Counted from the stretch's first letter, positions 17,156 to 27,294 are shown. The stretch: DNA of 64,000 nt from Escherichia coli (GCA_002099625.1 GCA_002099625.1_4857.1), one strand, 5' to 3'. Numbers and translations: made by a program. The notes: generated by a model from the sequence alone, not told the origin.

Positions 17156-18058
17156 TTAGCTAAGAACCAGTTCGATAACGTGGACTACCGACGCGCTATT
17201 GGTCGAAGAGGTGTACGATGGTAAGTCTGGTGAGCCGCTGCGATAATACCACGGGCTGGCGTTGTCATAACCGTTGGCAAACAATGTTGCGGTTGACTCG
17301 GTTGGACTACTGCCGGAGCGCGTCGGTAAGTCGCCAAAACGTCTTACGATGCCCGCGTACCGGAACAAGCTTGCGAACGTGTTGTGCCACTCGCCGTCTT
17401 GAAAATAACCACCGCTGCTTAGGTAGGTGCTGTGCCCATAACTGTAGTCTCCGAGTCGAGGCAAACGTACCACATACTCGTAACCGTCTTTATTAAATGT
17501 CCGACGCTGGTTAGTGGTAGTGACGCTCCGCGGCGGGAAACCGTAGTCATCTGTTCCCCAGGCCAGACCTTGCTGGTATTGTTCGTTCCACGTCGTCCCT
17601 AAACGGGTCACCGTGTCAGGAATGAACAGAATGCGTCCTTTGAAAACGAATTTATGGAACAATGTTGGAGCTTGGTTCCAGGCATTAAAGCCAATTAAAC
17701 CATTCAGCTCGGCATGGTTAAGAATAAATTCTTCGTTTGTCAGTGTGCCAAAGTAGCCACGATGCCAGTCGCCACGAATAAGTTCCTGTGGGCCGGGTCC
17801 TGTCATTGGAAAGTCGCCCTGTACAATCGGCAGCCCCATAACCTTTTCAGTGCCCTTTACCGCCACGATGCGATATTGATACGTTTTATACGCTTCGGTG
17901 GTCTTGTCCTCGTACGTCGTTGTGTTACCTGGTAGTGTTACAATAGGTTCCCCCGGTGCTACTGGGTTAACATTTTGTCTGGGGTTGTCGTAACGATAGA
18001 TTTCAATGGAATCCAAAGTCTGACCTGGCTGTTGTTTCCAGTTTAAGATAATCGACAT
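17156..18058 (-). CDS. fibre cassette 3, gene c (300-aa family)
   Basis: ATG start; paralogue of 20525-21424 and 23939-24862 (shared IEIYR..., TGPGPQ.L..GDW..GYFGT, YEYVVRLP motifs). Confidence 0.65.
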   Translation of the reverse strand: MSIILNWKQQPGQTLDSIEIYRYDNPRQNVNPVAPGEPIVTLPGNTTTYEDKTTEAYKTYQYRIVAVKGTEKVMGLPIVQGDFPMTGPGPQELIRGDWHRGYFGTLTNEEFILNHAELNGLIGFNAWNQAPTLFHKFVFKGRILFIPDTVTRLGTTWNEQYQQGLAWGTDDYGFPPRSVTTTNQRRTFNKDGYEYVVRLPRLGDYSYGHSTYLSSGGYFQDGEWHNTFASLFRYAGIVRRFGDLPTRSGSSPTESTATLFANGYDNASPWYYRSGSPDLPSYTSSTNSASVVHVIELVLS

Positions 18059-18061
18059 GTT

Positions 18062-19060
18062 TTACTCCACTAACTCGATAACGAATGCGTACAAACCGAC
18101 CTTCTCAGCACTGTCAATTAACGTAACTTGGGAGAGGTTACGTTTCGACGTATTGGTTATACTTGAATCGATAGGCGCAGACCCACGAACCAGAACTAAT
18201 CCCGATTCAGGATCACGTTCCTGGCACAAGAAACCTTTGCCTTGGTAAGCGCCACCGCTCCCATAAATGGACGCTGGACTAATATTAGTCCAGTTAGGGA
18301 GCATTTGTTTGTTAGGGATGCAATCAGCGAACGGATAAACAAAGTCGTTATATTCGCAGCGACCATATTCCAAGTCATCATGGTCTGCGTTTCGTAACGA
18401 TTCATCCAACGTCATTACTGTCGGTTCGTCCCCGTCGGTTAAACCGCGCAGCAATCGCATCCGATAGGTGTCGCCTTGCCATTCAAACAACCCACTCTGG
18501 TCAACACCTGCCAGATCCCCACGTCCGTTATCAGGACCAAATCCGTCTACGCCGTATACAAGACCCGCGTTATAAATGTCATTCCACGAGTAAAGTGTAG
18601 AGTTAAATCGTCCGCCGTTGTACATCATGTAGTAAACTTTACCATGACGATAAAACTTGTTCATGATTAGCGTGCCCGTGCCCGATATCCCTGTTAATGC
18701 ACGAAAGCCTGCAGGCAACGCGTCATAGGTCATCTGTTCTTCGAACGGCAACTGCCCCAGAAACGCCAAGTCGTCAGTATCGGAATAGTTAATCTGGTCG
18801 ACGCCACCCACACCACGACGGTTTTTAATGACAATGGATTTTTGTGGACTACCTACGGTACGACCGTTAACAGTTACTGTTAAAAGATACCAGTAACGGG
18901 TGTTAAGAATAACGGTTTCGTCCGTCCATTCCGTTTCGCCATTACTTAAAGTTGCAATAGGGGCTGGTAATGCGGCTGTATTTATTTTAGCCGTGCCCCG
19001 ATAAATGTTAACAATTGAACCTGCCGGATTTTCATTTTTCCAGCGTAGTGTGAAAGCCAT
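18062..19060 (-). CDS. fibre cassette 3, gene b (330-aa family)
   Basis: 332 aa; N-terminus MAFTLRWKNENPAG...ATLSNGETEW nearly identical in pattern to 21427-22416 and 24872-25870. Confidence 0.65.
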   Translation of the reverse strand: MAFTLRWKNENPAGSIVNIYRGTAKINTAALPAPIATLSNGETEWTDETVILNTRYWYLLTVTVNGRTVGSPQKSIVIKNRRGVGGVDQINYSDTDDLAFLGQLPFEEQMTYDALPAGFRALTGISGTGTLIMNKFYRHGKVYYMMYNGGRFNSTLYSWNDIYNAGLVYGVDGFGPDNGRGDLAGVDQSGLFEWQGDTYRMRLLRGLTDGDEPTVMTLDESLRNADHDDLEYGRCEYNDFVYPFADCIPNKQMLPNWTNISPASIYGSGGAYQGKGFLCQERDPESGLVLVRGSAPIDSSITNTSKRNLSQVTLIDSAEKVGLYAFVIELVE

Positions 19061-19070
19061 CTGTTACTCC

Positions 19071-24862: not shown

Positions 24863-24871
24863 GACTGCCCC

Positions 24872-25870
24872 TTACTCGACCAGTTCAAAGATAGGGTAGT
24901 AACGCCCTTTCGTGGTGGGTGATAAATAGTTTATACGCTGAATCGCTGATACGGGTGTTCCACCGGCATTGTTAAAGATACCACGATGGAGCACACGGTC
25001 TTCCGCGGTGTCGTGTTCCATACAGAGAACTCCGGCACCGAAATACGTTGCCGAGGTTCCCAAATTAGCCTGTCCCAGATAAGTATAACCGATTGTTGCC
25101 CAGTTAGCCCAACGTTGTTTCTTCGGCACCTCGTTAACCATCGTGTAAAGTAAATCGTTATACTCGCACGGGTTGGTTAGAGAAGCGATTTCATCGTGGG
25201 TTTTCCCATTGTAGTCAGCCACGAAAGGATACGCAGGAGACTCGCTAGACGTCGTCAGGCCGCGAGGAAGACGCATAATGTACGTATCCCCTTTGTGGAC
25301 TATCTTAGCGTCTTGTGGAGTGGCCGGTAGCGTTCCATGGCCGTTCTCTGGGCCAGCATCGCCTGTACCATAGACTAAACCAGCTTGATAGAGGGAAGCC
25401 CAGTCCACAGGCGTATTCGGGAACTGCGACGTATTAGATAGCATGTAATAGATCTTCCCGTTTCGGGTAAATTTATACAACGCCACACGATCGGTTAATA
25501 GATTAGGGAACATCGCCAAAAATGCAGGTGGCATTTGCGACGGAAGCCATTGTTCGTCGTAAGGAACCGCACCCATAAACCCTAAACGGTCGTTACCGTT
25601 TAGAATAGTCATTGGGCCAATCCCACGCTTTATCTCAATGGTGTATTTCTGGCTAGACGATGCCACTGTTTTACCGTTGGCGGTTACCGTCAGAAGGTAA
25701 TAATAGGTTGCGCCTGGTGCGGCGGTGGTATCACGCCATTCTGTCTCGCCATTTGAGAGCGTTGCAATCGGTTCAGGCAAAGCGCTCGGTGTGATATCTT
25801 TAACGTCACGGTAGATTTTTACTACCGTAGAGATTACGTTTGGATTTTTCCAACGCAAAGTAAAAGACAT
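24872..25870 (-). CDS. fibre cassette 1, gene b (330-aa family)
   Basis: 332 aa; MSFTLRWKNPNV...ATLSNGETEW. Confidence 0.65.
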   Translation of the reverse strand: MSFTLRWKNPNVISTVVKIYRDVKDITPSALPEPIATLSNGETEWRDTTAAPGATYYYLLTVTANGKTVASSSQKYTIEIKRGIGPMTILNGNDRLGFMGAVPYDEQWLPSQMPPAFLAMFPNLLTDRVALYKFTRNGKIYYMLSNTSQFPNTPVDWASLYQAGLVYGTGDAGPENGHGTLPATPQDAKIVHKGDTYIMRLPRGLTTSSESPAYPFVADYNGKTHDEIASLTNPCEYNDLLYTMVNEVPKKQRWANWATIGYTYLGQANLGTSATYFGAGVLCMEHDTAEDRVLHRGIFNNAGGTPVSAIQRINYLSPTTKGRYYPIFELVE

Positions 25871-25881
25871 GGATGATACCT

Positions 25882-27294
25882 CTACTTAAAGCCGTTCAGT
25901 TCACCGTTAAGAGACGTTAACGATGTCTTGTCGGGTGGCGTATACATTTCAGCGGTAGCCGCAATGGGTTGGAAGTCGACTGTCTTCGGCAGCATTAAAG
26001 CAGGCGGATGCAGTGCGAAACTGTTTTCTGAAGTAACAACTACCGGTTCGAAATCGGTAGTATCTGGATTACCGAGCACCAACGGCTTGAGACTAAACGT
26101 GTTTTCTGCGGACACGCTGCACGGTTGGAGACTGTAATCTACCGCACCATGGATATCTTCTAAACCCAAGGTAACTGTGGACTTATCCACCAACTCTAGC
26201 ACCGGGAACCAGTAGTAGTTGCCTGCGCTCGATGATTTTCCTAAGTTTGTCCAACTGGCTCCAGACAACGTCGCCATGCGATGATTGGCGACGTTGGTGT
26301 TCAGTGTATCTTTCAATAAACAGAACAGCGTCCAGTAACTGTTAATCGGTTTGTCCCACGTTCCATTATACAGAAAGTTGAACATCTCAAACTCACTACC
26401 TGCTAACTCAGCGGCAGTTGGGGTGCCGCTGACGTATGGGTCTTTCCCGGCACTAGGTAGACGAACACGGAAGTAAAACCTTTTGTTGTCTGCGCCTGTA
26501 AAGCTAATGATGCGTCCCTGGTTAACGGGCGTCGCCGCAGGGTATTTACCATTATCGTCTGTTCCGTAAACGAGTCCGTTTGTATATAACGTATTCCAGG
26601 AGATGGAGCTAGCGACAGGACTAATCGGGAGGTAAATAACCCTACCCTGGTAAAAGAACTTGTACCAACCTTCGGCACCAGAATGTACCGGTGGTAACGC
26701 ACCGGCCGATATAGTGGCATTAAGAAGTTGAGAGTGTGTAAACAACTCTGCAATTGTGGTTGTTCCGAAATAACCCGCGATAGTGTTACCTTGCAGCAAC
26801 GTTTTAGGGCCAGGTCCAGAATCGGGGTAAATTGCACCACTCGGGACGGTATAACGTATCGTTAAGCTGCCTGTAAACGCAGGGCAATTACCTGAGATAT
26901 TTAATTTCAACGTCTGCGGCGAAGCGCTCGGTTTAGGTAAACTTGCGTCAGGTGACTGCAAATCAGAAGCAACTAATGTAAGCCCCAATGCGTCGTTTAT
27001 TGCAGGTAGCGCGTCTCGTACCGTTAAGACTGTATCTTTGATAGCCACAGTCGGCACAAAATTAAATAAAGTGGCCAGGTTAATCCGGTCGTAGTACACG
27101 GTAACATTACCTTGTACACCTGTCCCTGGATACCCGGTGAAAACAGCTTTGGTGTTACGTTGGTTTAACGTAACTGAAGTTGGGCCGCTGGTTAAAGCAG
27201 CGATAGCCGGCGTCAGCTTAACAACTAAATCAGGATTATCCCGATTGACTTGGTCGTATACAAGCAGTGCCGACTCCTTCGAGTAAAATAGCAT
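25882..27294 (-). CDS. fibre cassette 1, gene a (480-aa family)
   Basis: 470 aa; N-module MLFYSKESALLVYDQVNRDNP...; C-terminus DKTSLTSLNGELNGFK. Confidence 0.65.
   Translation of the reverse strand: MLFYSKESALLVYDQVNRDNPDLVVKLTPAIAALTSGPTSVTLNQRNTKAVFTGYPGTGVQGNVTVYYDRINLATLFNFVPTVAIKDTVLTVRDALPAINDALGLTLVASDLQSPDASLPKPSASPQTLKLNISGNCPAFTGSLTIRYTVPSGAIYPDSGPGPKTLLQGNTIAGYFGTTTIAELFTHSQLLNATISAGALPPVHSGAEGWYKFFYQGRVIYLPISPVASSISWNTLYTNGLVYGTDDNGKYPAATPVNQGRIISFTGADNKRFYFRVRLPSAGKDPYVSGTPTAAELAGSEFEMFNFLYNGTWDKPINSYWTLFCLLKDTLNTNVANHRMATLSGASWTNLGKSSSAGNYYWFPVLELVDKSTVTLGLEDIHGAVDYSLQPCSVSAENTFSLKPLVLGNPDTTDFEPVVVTSENSFALHPPALMLPKTVDFQPIAATAEMYTPPDKTSLTSLNGELNGFK

What the first reader, a model, noticed from the sequence alone, without database searches (positions are those of the whole stretch)
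17156..27294. Three tandem, paralogous three-gene receptor-binding cassettes
Reading 5' to 3' on the minus strand, the unit [470-498-aa protein with N-module and C-terminal NGEL(N/D)GF] then [about 330-aa protein starting M(A/S)FT(L/I)RW(K/T)N] then [about 300-aa protein with IEIYR and TGPGPQ..L.GDW..GYFGT motifs] occurs three times in a row (25882-23939, 22429-20525, 19071-17156). Members of each family are clearly homologous but diverged. The 470-498-aa and 300-aa families also share a GPGP...GYFG motif. This looks like triplication of a whole adhesin module, as expected for a branched multi-specificity tail-fibre apparatus, and points to recombination-driven host-range evolution.
Basis: partly seen in the sequence, partly recalled or inferred. 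Interest (0 to 1): 0.6.

Follow-up and report, generated by a model that had tools for sequence, protein, structure and literature searches.

The report
Triplicated three-gene virion adhesin-like cassettes
A giant Salmonella phage of the SPN3US type carries three old, diverged copies of a three-gene module for low-copy virion proteins built from binding-type domains. Related phages gain, lose and swap the module as a block, but published proteomics puts these proteins on the head rather than the tail.

Summary
On the minus strand of 17156-27294, a unit A (470-498 aa), B (329-332 aa), C (299-307 aa) occurs three times. Identity within a family is 29-47% (BLASTP E 1e-50 to 1e-100).

The window is a Seoulvirus about 97.5% identical to Salmonella phage SPN3US. 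The nine genes are gp145-gp153, part of the published "paralog family B".

- **A proteins:** the N-domain of Pfam DUF7941 (the fold of phiKZ gp127), a roughly 220-aa "X" domain, and a disordered tail of about 25-aa repeats ending in NGEL(D/N)GF.
- **B and C proteins:** a fibronectin type III (FN3) domain followed by the same X domain. X has no Pfam model and only a weak C-type-lectin-like fold match.
- **Evolution:** across seven phages the A, B and C trees agree on five cassette types. Copy number runs from 1 to 4. Close relatives show independent deletions, a B2/B3 hybrid and a replacement.

The "adhesin module shaped by recombination" reading is supported. The "branched tail fibre" reading is not: SPN3US tailless heads keep all nine proteins at portal-like ratios.

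My best explanation is that these are surface ligand-binding modules carried on the DUF7941 filament system, with the anchor site unresolved. The paralogy is already known; the cassette anatomy and its turnover are, as far as I found, newly described here.

The parts
25882..27294 (-). A1 (SPN3US gp145 orthologue, 470 aa): DUF7941 N-domain, X domain, then a disordered tail with two repeats ending in NGELNGFK
   Evidence: ORF. Pfam DUF7941 E 1.3e-31 over residues 1-150. 97.7% aa identity to SPN3US gp145. Tail repeat score 65 against shuffles of 20.8 +/- 3.0.
24872..25870 (-). B1 (gp146 orthologue, 332 aa): FN3-like N-domain plus X domain
   Evidence: 38-39% identical to B2 and B3. phrog_1062 E 4e-57.
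23939..24862 (-). C1 (gp147 orthologue, 307 aa): FN3 plus X domain. Its allele is unusually diverged from those of close relatives.
   Evidence: dS is 0.30-0.53 against 0.01-0.19 for the neighbouring genes, and the amino-acid changes cluster in the last ~70 residues.
22429..23925 (-). A2 (gp148 orthologue, 498 aa). N-domain about 23476-23925, X domain about 22798-23478, disordered repeat tail about 22432-22797.
21427..22416 (-). B2 (gp149 orthologue, 329 aa): FN3-like N-domain plus X domain
   Evidence: 47% identical to B3.
20525..21424 (-). C2 (gp150 orthologue, 299 aa, ATG at 21424): FN3 (residues 1-82) plus X domain (about 85-299)
19071..20513 (-). A3 (gp151 orthologue, 480 aa): DUF7941 N-domain, X domain, then a three-repeat tail ending in NGELNGF
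   Evidence: Pfam DUF7941 E 6.3e-22. Tail repeats. The 5' end of this gene is a breakpoint of the cassette-3 deletions in Lh1B and SPLA3.
18062..19060 (-). B3 (gp152 orthologue, 332 aa): FN3-like N-domain plus X domain
   Evidence: It is the 3' partner of the B2/B3 chimera in phage SPLA5c.
17156..18058 (-). C3 (gp153 orthologue, 300 aa): FN3 plus X domain
   Evidence: 45% identical to C2.
17052..17144 (-). Relic of a further DUF7941 or A-type gene (30 codons, MGFYSSTALELLCRLIQRDNPQHAGRISWS*) with its own ribosome-binding site. It is followed by a stretch homologous to the 3' end of gp144.
   Evidence: It is the partner sequence in the cassette-3 deletions. In SPLA5c the same relic is a 91-aa ORF.
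16997..17036 (-). 3'-end motif CACCATAACAGCTAA plus a GC-rich hairpin with a TTCG loop and a T-run. This terminator-like element closes the cassette array.
   Evidence: (repeat family D12).
27319..27356 (-). The homologous element at the other end of the array: the gp144 3' end (CACTATAACAGCTAA = H-Y-N-S-stop) plus a GGGGCTC-TTCG-GAGCCCC hairpin, just upstream of A1
27342..33419 (-). Context: seven tandem full-length DUF7941 paralogues (gp138-gp144 orthologues), the presumed filament subunits
   Evidence: Pfam DUF7941 E 1e-66 to 1e-88 over profile positions 1-276.
13466..16977 (-). Context: gp154 (DUF7941 plus a C-terminal domain) and gp155 (DUF7941 N-domain plus a GP38-type tail-fibre adhesin domain)
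   Evidence: Pfam results (GP38 E 4.8e-18). PDB gp38 chains 9v85 and 6f45 at E about 0.004.

Best explanation
The region encodes three ancient paralogous copies of a three-gene module of low-copy virion proteins. I think these act as ligand-binding (adhesin-like) units mounted on the DUF7941 filament system of this phage group.

**Shown**
- Each A protein has only the N-domain of DUF7941, the fold of phiKZ gp127. It is followed by a ~220-aa X domain and a 95-120-aa disordered tail of two or three ~25-aa proline-containing repeats ending in a conserved NGEL(D/N)GF.
- Each B and C protein is an FN3 domain followed by the same X domain.
- All nine SPN3US orthologues are in the virion, at my rough estimate of 4-14 copies each. 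None is cut by the prohead protease, and all stay with tailless heads.
- The three genes of a cassette co-diverge, and the cassette is the unit of loss, replacement and hybrid formation.
- Differences between close relatives pile up in the C-terminal part of the X domain of C and B.

**Inferred**
- The A N-domain accepts the linker and C-domain of a full-length DUF7941 subunit (gp138-gp144). This is by analogy with Goslar gp22 filaments and the phiKZ gp126-gp127 pair. A would then cap or decorate a filament.
- The repeat tail of A recruits the B and C proteins of its own cassette, giving a unit with three X domains.
- The X domains bind host-surface ligands, probably glycans. Several cassette types would give several specificities.

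**Unresolved**
Where the filaments are anchored. SPN3US proteomics says head or neck. The phiKZ structure says outer baseplate.
For: - **X in other proteins.** An X profile finds 1853 clusters. Some are giant proteins with 3-8 X domains alongside Laminin_G_3, Kelch or BspA-type repeats.
- **Neighbour gp155.** It couples the same N-domain to a GP38 adhesin domain.
- **Published DUF7941 work.** Goslar gp22 forms filaments in vitro, and DUF7941 proteins are proposed as host-recognition fibres (bioRxiv 10.64898/2026.04.21.720040).
- **Synteny.** In phiKZ-like phage SL2, an FN3 plus half-X plus Kelch-like protein lies directly upstream of the two genes I take to be gp126- and gp127-like.
- **Cassette as a unit.** Concordant trees with five types, Mantel r 0.93-0.97; copy number 1-4.
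- **Turnover scars.**
- **Variable tips.** Amino-acid differences cluster at the C-terminal end of C and B.
- **Virion presence.** The spectral counts are in PMC10052503 Table S2. From them I estimate roughly equal abundance of A, B and C within a cassette, to within about 3-fold.
Against: - No binding, adsorption or host-range data exist for any of these proteins.
- The A-B-C complex and the docking of A on filaments are inferences. I could not run multimer predictions.
- SPN3US workers labelled the high- and mid-abundance family members they tabulated "head ejection?". Retention on tailless heads fits an internal location just as well.
- Gene-wide dN/dS is below 1 everywhere, 0.09-0.66.
- Loss of cassette 3 does not track the host genus.
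Confidence: 0.5

Rival explanations
1. Internal head proteins, as tentatively labelled in the SPN3US literature ("head ejection?"). The cassette proteins would be packaged inside the capsid and ejected with the DNA. They would diversify through conflict with host defences rather than with host surfaces.
For: - All nine are retained on DNA-filled tailless heads of two mutants after step and buoyant-density CsCl gradients. Their ratios match those of the portal and the major capsid protein (PMC5105663; PMC10052503 Table S2).
- Chimalliviruses do package many paralogous proteins.
- Paralogue turnover is also typical of anti-defence genes.
Against: [quoted passage not shown]
- FN3, lectin-like and GP38-adhesin domains are surface-binding modules.
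- The N-domain homologue phiKZ gp127 was fitted on the outside of the baseplate (PMC13250141).
- Purified Goslar gp22 forms long filaments.
Confidence: 0.2
2. One reading: classical receptor-binding proteins of a branched tail-fibre or baseplate apparatus. Each cassette would be one branch attached to the baseplate.
For: - The A N-domain has the fold of phiKZ gp127, which ends the gp139 band at the outer baseplate periphery.
- The Goslar preprint places DUF7941 filaments at the baseplate.
- Family member gp237 is scored as a tail protein in SPN3US.
- Genes annotated as a tail assembly chaperone (RefSeq gp157, DUF1353) and a DUF4376 protein lie nearby.
Against: - The SPN3US orthologues are not lost with the tail. 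Their head/WT ratios are 1.06-1.67, against 0.06 or below for sheath, tube and the gp168-170 fibre candidates.
- No trimeric fibre, beta-helix or coiled-coil domain was detected, and the models are globular monomers.
- The phiKZ tail fibres were assigned to the gp131 family, not to this one.
Confidence: 0.15
3. Structural or decoration proteins with no host-binding role, for example capsid or neck ornaments, or scaffolds for the DUF7941 filaments. The paralogy would reflect neutral duplication.
For: Low copy number and head association. Purifying selection overall. No phenotype is known for any of them.
Against: - Five cassette types have been kept as intact three-gene units across at least three genera.
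- Variation is concentrated at one end of the X domain.
- X co-occurs with lectin-type domains in other proteins.
Confidence: 0.1
4. B and C are glycosyl hydrolases (depolymerases), as annotated in the GenBank records of Proteus phage 7 and Salmonella phage MET_P1_082_240.
Against: - There is no Pfam or NCBIfam hydrolase match.
- Only the ~75-aa FN3 module aligns to those enzymes, not a catalytic domain.
- The X domain has no hydrolase-fold match.
Confidence: 0.03

Closest known systems
SPN3US "paralog family B" (Thomas et al. 2016, PMC5105663; Ali et al. 2017, PMC5694885; Scheuch et al. 2023, PMC10052503)
   Same: These are the same genes. The window proteins are 91.5-99.2% identical to SPN3US gp145-gp153. 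The paralogy, the virion presence and the head assignment are all published.
   Different: In the text I read, the papers treat gp138-gp154 as one PSI-BLAST family of unknown function. I found no description of the A-B-C unit, of the three architectures, of the X domain or of cassette turnover. B and C in fact lack the DUF7941 domain. They join the family only through the X domain.
DUF7941 (PF25613) filament proteins of chimalliviruses: Goslar gp22/gp23 and phiKZ gp126/gp127 (bioRxiv 10.64898/2026.04.21.720040; PMC13250141; PDB 9XQD)
   Same: The A proteins carry the DUF7941 N-domain, and the A2 model matches phiKZ gp127. As in Goslar gp86, gp92 and gp161, the N-domain is followed by a putative binding domain.
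   Different: A lacks the DUF7941 linker and C-domain, so it cannot by itself extend a head-to-tail chain in the proposed way. The appended domain is X, not the carbohydrate-binding, hydrolase or LRR domains described for Goslar. TBLASTN with C2 listed no Goslar record; the only two Escherichia records are Lh1B and EC001. In SPN3US the proteins are head-associated, not baseplate-associated.
C-type-lectin-fold receptor binders of phages and bacteria: Bordetella phage Mtd and T. denticola TvpA, Bdellovibrio MAT fibre tips, intimin/invasin
   Different: No diversity-generating retroelement signature: there is no near-identical template/variable repeat pair in the region. There is no sequence similarity, and binding is unproven. 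That Mtd belongs to this fold class is from my own knowledge, not from a hit here.
Ig-like and FN3 decoration domains on phage particles, for example T4 Hoc (from my own knowledge)
   Same: An FN3 module at the N-terminus of a low-copy, head-associated, non-essential-looking virion protein. The assumed role is weak binding to surfaces.
   Different: There is no known capsid-binding domain. The proteins come as co-inherited triplets together with a DUF7941 adaptor.
Multi-receptor-binding-protein phages with branched tailspike sets (CBA120, G7C and RaK2 types) and the T-even gp37/gp38 adhesin exchange (from my own knowledge)
   Same: Several paralogous binding modules sit in tandem, exchanged and lost as blocks between relatives.
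   Different: Those are trimeric tailspikes or fibres anchored to the baseplate through defined adaptor domains, and they are lost with the tail. The cassette proteins here are globular and stay with heads. Only the neighbour gp155 has a GP38-type domain.

Membership tests
SPN3US paralog family B (gp138-154 and others) | Orthology to the SPN3US genes at the same locus | tested here: met
   Megablast 97.4% over the whole region. The annotated genes are SPN3US_0145-0153. Amino-acid identity is 91.5-99.2%.
SPN3US paralog family B (gp138-154 and others) | Presence in purified virions and in tailless heads | not testable with these tools
   Published for SPN3US itself (PMC10052503 Table S2). It is only assumed for the phage in this window.
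DUF7941 (Pfam PF25613) | Pfam match above the gathering score (27 bits) | tested here: met
   A1 scores 110.6 bits, A2 105.1 and A3 78.8, in each case for the N-domain only (profile positions 1-153 of 276). B and C have no match, so they are not members.
DUF7941 (Pfam PF25613) | Linker plus C-terminal globular domain (profile positions about 154-276), the part used for head-to-tail docking | tested here: not met
   The A proteins match only positions 1-153. gp138-gp144 match positions 1-276.
DUF7941 (Pfam PF25613) | N-domain fold like phiKZ gp127 (PDB 9XQD chain 0) | tested here: met
DUF7941 (Pfam PF25613) | Filament formation, or docking onto another DUF7941 protomer | not testable with these tools
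   Needs multimer prediction or experiment. Shown only for Goslar gp22.
Fibronectin type III domain | Seven-strand beta-sandwich that superposes on FN3 structures | tested here: met
C-type lectin-like (CLec/FGE-type) fold | Fold similarity of the X domain to CTLD structures | tested here: inconclusive
C-type lectin-like (CLec/FGE-type) fold | Canonical carbohydrate- or Ca-binding motifs and conserved disulfides | not tested
   No conserved cysteine column appears among the nine X domains (alignment). The binding motifs were not examined on the model.
Phage tail fibre or tailspike receptor-binding protein | Part of the tail: lost from tailless particles | tested here: not met
   From the literature, not from computation. 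Head/WT ratios are 1.06-1.67 for gp145-153, against 0.06 or below for tail proteins.
Phage tail fibre or tailspike receptor-binding protein | Fibrous or beta-helical trimerisation domain | tested here: not met
   No such Pfam or PHROG match. The AF2 models are globular domains plus a disordered tail.
GP38 tail-fibre adhesin (PF05268) | Pfam match with glycine-rich motifs | tested here: not met
   None of the nine cassette proteins matches. Only the neighbour gp155 does (E 4.8e-18).
Glycosyl hydrolase (GenBank product name in two relatives) | Catalytic domain recognisable by profile or fold | tested here: not met
   No Pfam or NCBIfam hydrolase match. Structural hits to hydrolases involve only their FN3 modules.
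Diversity-generating retroelement target | Template/variable repeat pair next to the variable protein gene | tested here: not met
   No near-identical direct repeat in 16900-27400. The best families are 60-89% identical and all are paralogous coding segments. The rest of the window was not searched for a reverse transcriptase.

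The most novel reading that the evidence does not exclude
The DUF7941 system of SPN3US-type phages is a head- or neck-anchored adhesin apparatus, not a baseplate one. Each cassette would make an A-B-C complex with three lectin-like X domains. That complex would be held on a DUF7941 filament by the A N-domain, so the particle carries several interchangeable specificities away from the tail. This would reconcile the SPN3US tailless-head proteomics with the binding-type domain content. 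It would also mean that the anchor site of the same filament family differs between SPN3US and phiKZ.
Probability: 0.3. Interest if true: 0.65.

Novelty: new variant of a known kind. Interest (0 to 1): 0.45.

Why it matters
How nucleus-forming giant phages (chimalliviruses) recognise their hosts is poorly understood. The DUF7941 family was proposed as a host-recognition "fibre cloud" only in 2026. That proposal does not mention the SPN3US data that place the family on the head.

This locus adds three things.
- **A modular rule.** A DUF7941 adaptor gene travels with two FN3-X genes as one unit.
- **A catalogue.** There are five cassette types, present in one to four copies.
- **Natural variants.** Existing isolates carry a deletion, a hybrid or a replacement of a cassette, so they can be compared directly for adsorption and host range.

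If the modules are adhesins, they are handles for retargeting therapeutic Salmonella and E. coli jumbo phages. If they are internal, the FN3 and lectin-like content would be an oddity needing its own explanation.

Tried and rejected
- **Sequence searches of the PDB.** Single sequences and profiles of the A and C families gave nothing useful. The PsbQ' hits at E about 0.005 are judged spurious.
- **AFDB50 fold search.** The library was not available.
- **NCBIfam.** No match.
- **A wrong guess, corrected.** I first read the shared 15-nt motif at both ends of the array as a promoter-like element. It is the homologous 3' end of gp144 and of a relic gene, each followed by a hairpin.
- **Sigma-70 promoter scan.** Fewer sites than in shuffles, so uninformative.
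- **Lh1B comparison.** That record has 112 N bases in the region, so its identity and dN/dS values are unreliable.
- **Host correlation.** Loss of cassette 3 occurs in both E. coli and Salmonella isolates, so I rejected a simple link with host.
- **Glycosyl hydrolase annotation.** Rejected.
- **Diversity-generating retroelement idea.** Rejected for lack of repeat pairs.
- **A-tail docking idea.** The end of the A tail may mimic the DUF7941 linker motif. The resemblance is too weak and short to test, so it is left as an idea in the notebook.
- **Literature on phiKZ gp126/gp127.** I found no head-versus-tail proteomics for these proteins.

Full report
**What the window is.** The region 17000-27400 matches Salmonella phage SPN3US and about 16 other Seoulvirus genomes over its full length at 96-98% nucleotide identity. 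The nine genes of the finding are the orthologues of SPN3US gp145-gp153 (locus tags SPN3US_0145-0153). Amino-acid identity to them is 91.5-99.2%.

**The observation.** All nine ORFs lie on the minus strand, separated by about 3-13 bases:
- A1 25882-27294, B1 24872-25870, C1 23939-24862.
- A2 22429-23925, B2 21427-22416, C2 20525-21424.
- A3 19071-20513, B3 18062-19060, C3 17156-18058.

BLASTP gives A-A 29-38%, B-B 38-47% and C-C 40-47% identity, with E-values from 1e-50 to 1e-100. At the DNA level only 60-89% identical patches remain, spaced about 3360-3450 nt apart, so the triplication is old. Two small corrections apply. C2 starts at the ATG at 21424, as the published N-terminal peptide of SPN3US gp150 shows.

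**Anatomy of the A proteins.**
- Residues 1-150 match Pfam DUF7941 (PF25613) at E 1e-22 to 1e-31, but only profile positions 1-153 of 276.
- Residues about 150-376 form a domain I call X.
- The last 95-120 residues are predicted disordered (pLDDT about 32).
- That tail contains two or three ~25-aa repeats. Internal alignment scores are 48-65, against 21-30 for shuffles.
- It ends in a conserved K-T-x-L...NGEL(D/N)GF.

**Surroundings.**
- Seven tandem full-length DUF7941 genes (gp138-gp144, 27342-33419) sit immediately upstream in the direction of transcription.
- Downstream lie gp154 (DUF7941 plus a further domain) and gp155. In gp155 the DUF7941 N-domain is fused to a GP38-type tail-fibre adhesin domain: Pfam E 4.8e-18, and PDB gp38 chains at E about 0.004.
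- The cassette array is bracketed by two homologous elements. Each is the last codons of a DUF7941 gene followed by a GC hairpin with a TTCG loop (27319-27356 and 16997-17036).
- The element after C3 belongs to a relic. Window 17052-17144 still encodes MGFYSSTALELLCRLIQRDNPQHAGRISWS*, the start of an A-type gene with its own ribosome-binding site.

**The cassette as an evolutionary unit.** I collected the array from seven phages of at least three genera.
- Copy number is 1 in Cronobacter phage CR5 and 2 in E. coli phage Lh1B. It is 3 here and in JN03 and Phobos, and 4 in Erwinia phage ChrisDB.
- Neighbour-joining trees of A, B and C give the same five clusters.
- The three distance matrices correlate at r 0.93-0.97 (Mantel p of 2e-4 or below).
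- The cassettes of this window are types I, II and III. The duplications predate the split of these genera, and no shuffling of A, B and C between types was seen.

**Recent turnover within Seoulvirus.**
- Lh1B and SPLA3 both lack cassette 3 but have different junctions (17047|20495 and 17092|20430). Both formed between the 5' end of A3 and the relic.
- SPLA5c has a B2/B3 chimera that removes C2 and A3. Its A2 has also lost one 26-aa tail repeat.
- JN03 keeps a stump of cassette 3 and carries a type IV cassette in place of gp154/gp155.
- C1 of this window has dS 0.30-0.53 against relatives whose flanking genes differ by 0.01-0.19, so it is an imported allele.
- Among close relatives, amino-acid changes concentrate in the last ~70 residues of C and B, while the FN3 domain and the start of X are almost invariant.
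- Gene-wide dN/dS stays below 1.

**What is already published.** Thomas et al. 2016 and Ali et al. 2017 defined "paralog family B" (gps 83, 138-154, 161, 237). They called it possibly the largest paralogue family in a phage genome and assigned it to the head, because it is present in a tailless mutant. Scheuch et al. 2023 repeated this with a tail-tube amber mutant purified on two CsCl gradients. Normalised head/wild-type spectral ratios are 1.06-1.67 for gp145-gp153. The portal is 1.40 and the capsid protein 1.39; sheath, tube and fibre candidates are at 0.06 or below. None of the nine is cut by the prohead protease. Scaling spectral counts per kDa to the portal (12 copies) gives my rough estimate of 4-14 copies of each protein per virion.

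Two 2026 papers point the other way. The phiKZ atlas fits the gp127 N-domain at the tip of the outer baseplate (PMC13250141, PDB 9XQD). The Goslar preprint shows that gp22 forms filaments and proposes a baseplate-anchored "DUF7941 fibre cloud" for host recognition. That preprint does not mention SPN3US.

**Wider distribution of X.**
- A profile of the nine X domains finds 1853 clusters at 50% identity (1248 at E of 1e-10 or below). Most are ~300-aa FN3-X proteins. Some are giant proteins with 3-8 X domains plus Laminin_G_3, Kelch or BspA-type repeats, and three of them lie on contigs of about 85-275 kb.
- TBLASTN with C2 hits 135 phage records. The ones listed are giant phages, mostly relatives of phiKZ and SPN3US.
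- In phiKZ-like phage SL2, an FN3 plus half-X plus Kelch-like protein lies directly upstream of the two genes I take to be gp126- and gp127-like. The linkage of X proteins to DUF7941 genes is therefore old.

**Interpretation.** FN3, a lectin-like domain, a GP38 adhesin in the neighbouring gene, variable C-terminal tips and block-wise turnover all point the same way. These proteins most likely sit on the virion surface and bind something on the host.

Because A has only the accepting half of DUF7941, I infer that it caps or decorates filaments made of gp138-gp144. Because A, B and C co-diverge and are roughly equimolar, I infer that the repeat tail of A holds B and C. Neither inference could be tested here.

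The tail-fibre reading of the first stage fails its clearest test, which is loss with the tail. The internal-protein reading remains possible. I put the surface-adhesin model at 0.5, internal proteins at 0.2, classical baseplate fibres at 0.15, a non-binding structural role at 0.1 and hydrolases at 0.03.

**Verdict.** The genes and their paralogy are known. The cassette rule, the domain dissection, the five types and the recombination scars are new description, so I class this as a new variant of a known kind, of moderate interest. The most interesting open point is the conflict over where this family sits on the particle.

Noticed in passing
window 13466-15643 (-): The gp155 orthologue fuses a DUF7941 N-domain to a GP38-type tail-fibre adhesin domain with glycine-rich motifs (Pfam E 4.8e-18). 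SPN3US proteomics nevertheless scores gp155 as a head protein.
   Followed up: partly
window 17052-17144 (-): A 30-codon relic of an A-type or DUF7941 gene with its own ribosome-binding site sits in the spacer after C3. It is the recombination partner in the cassette-3 deletions of Lh1B and SPLA3. In SPLA5c it is a 91-aa ORF.
   Followed up: yes
window 6518-7468 and 7461-8789 (+): Two radical-SAM genes lie near the DUF7941 block. The same pair sits next to the array in Erwinia phages ChrisDB and Phobos and in Cronobacter phage CR5. Their role is unknown.
   Followed up: no
window 10047-10574 (-): A small (175-aa) protein made only of the DUF7941 N-domain (Pfam E 1e-10). It is the orthologue of SPN3US gp160, one of the most abundant virion proteins.
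   Followed up: partly
window 9294-9965 (+), 11840-12481 (-), 12770-13423 (-): A DUF4376 protein, a DUF1353 protein (named tail assembly chaperone in RefSeq; non-virion by mass spectrometry) and a GH108 plus PG_binding_3 endolysin lie just beyond gp155.
   Followed up: no
window 43245-45290 (-), residues 533-622: The C-terminal part of this long TTG-started ORF resembles the A2 N-domain (31% over 91 aa). It is probably SPN3US gp122, the published "family B candidate", and the ORF as listed is probably over-extended.
   Followed up: no
window 4592-4984 / 4995-5399 (+) and 60058-60534 / 60522-61016 (-): Two further tandem paralogue pairs, 47% and 34% identical, of unknown function.
   Followed up: no
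window 23939-24862 (C1): Synonymous divergence from SPN3US, Lh1B and JN03 is 0.30-0.53, against 0.01-0.19 in the flanking genes. This suggests a single-gene allele replacement by recombination.
   Followed up: partly
L012 (Salmonella phage SPLA5c) 4203-5277 and 5290-6708: There is a B2/B3 chimera, annotated as two ORFs (a frameshift or a sequencing error). The A2 gene is missing exactly one 26-aa tail repeat.
   Followed up: partly
L010 (Pseudomonas phage SL2) 4956-8622: A 649-aa protein with FN3, the first half of the X domain (hhalign probability 90%) and a Kelch-like region. It lies directly upstream of two 286-aa genes that I take, from size and position, to be the gp126 and gp127 equivalents. 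Pfam DUF7941 does not detect those two at E 0.01.
   Followed up: partly
L004 (Escherichia phage vB_EcoM_Lh1B): The fetched stretch of this record contains 112 N bases, several of them inside C2 and at the deletion junction. Identity values for this phage are therefore underestimates.
   Followed up: yes
literature: The Goslar preprint cites the phiKZ outer-baseplate entry as 9QXD. The entry found by the fold search and named in the phiKZ paper is 9XQD.
   Followed up: yes
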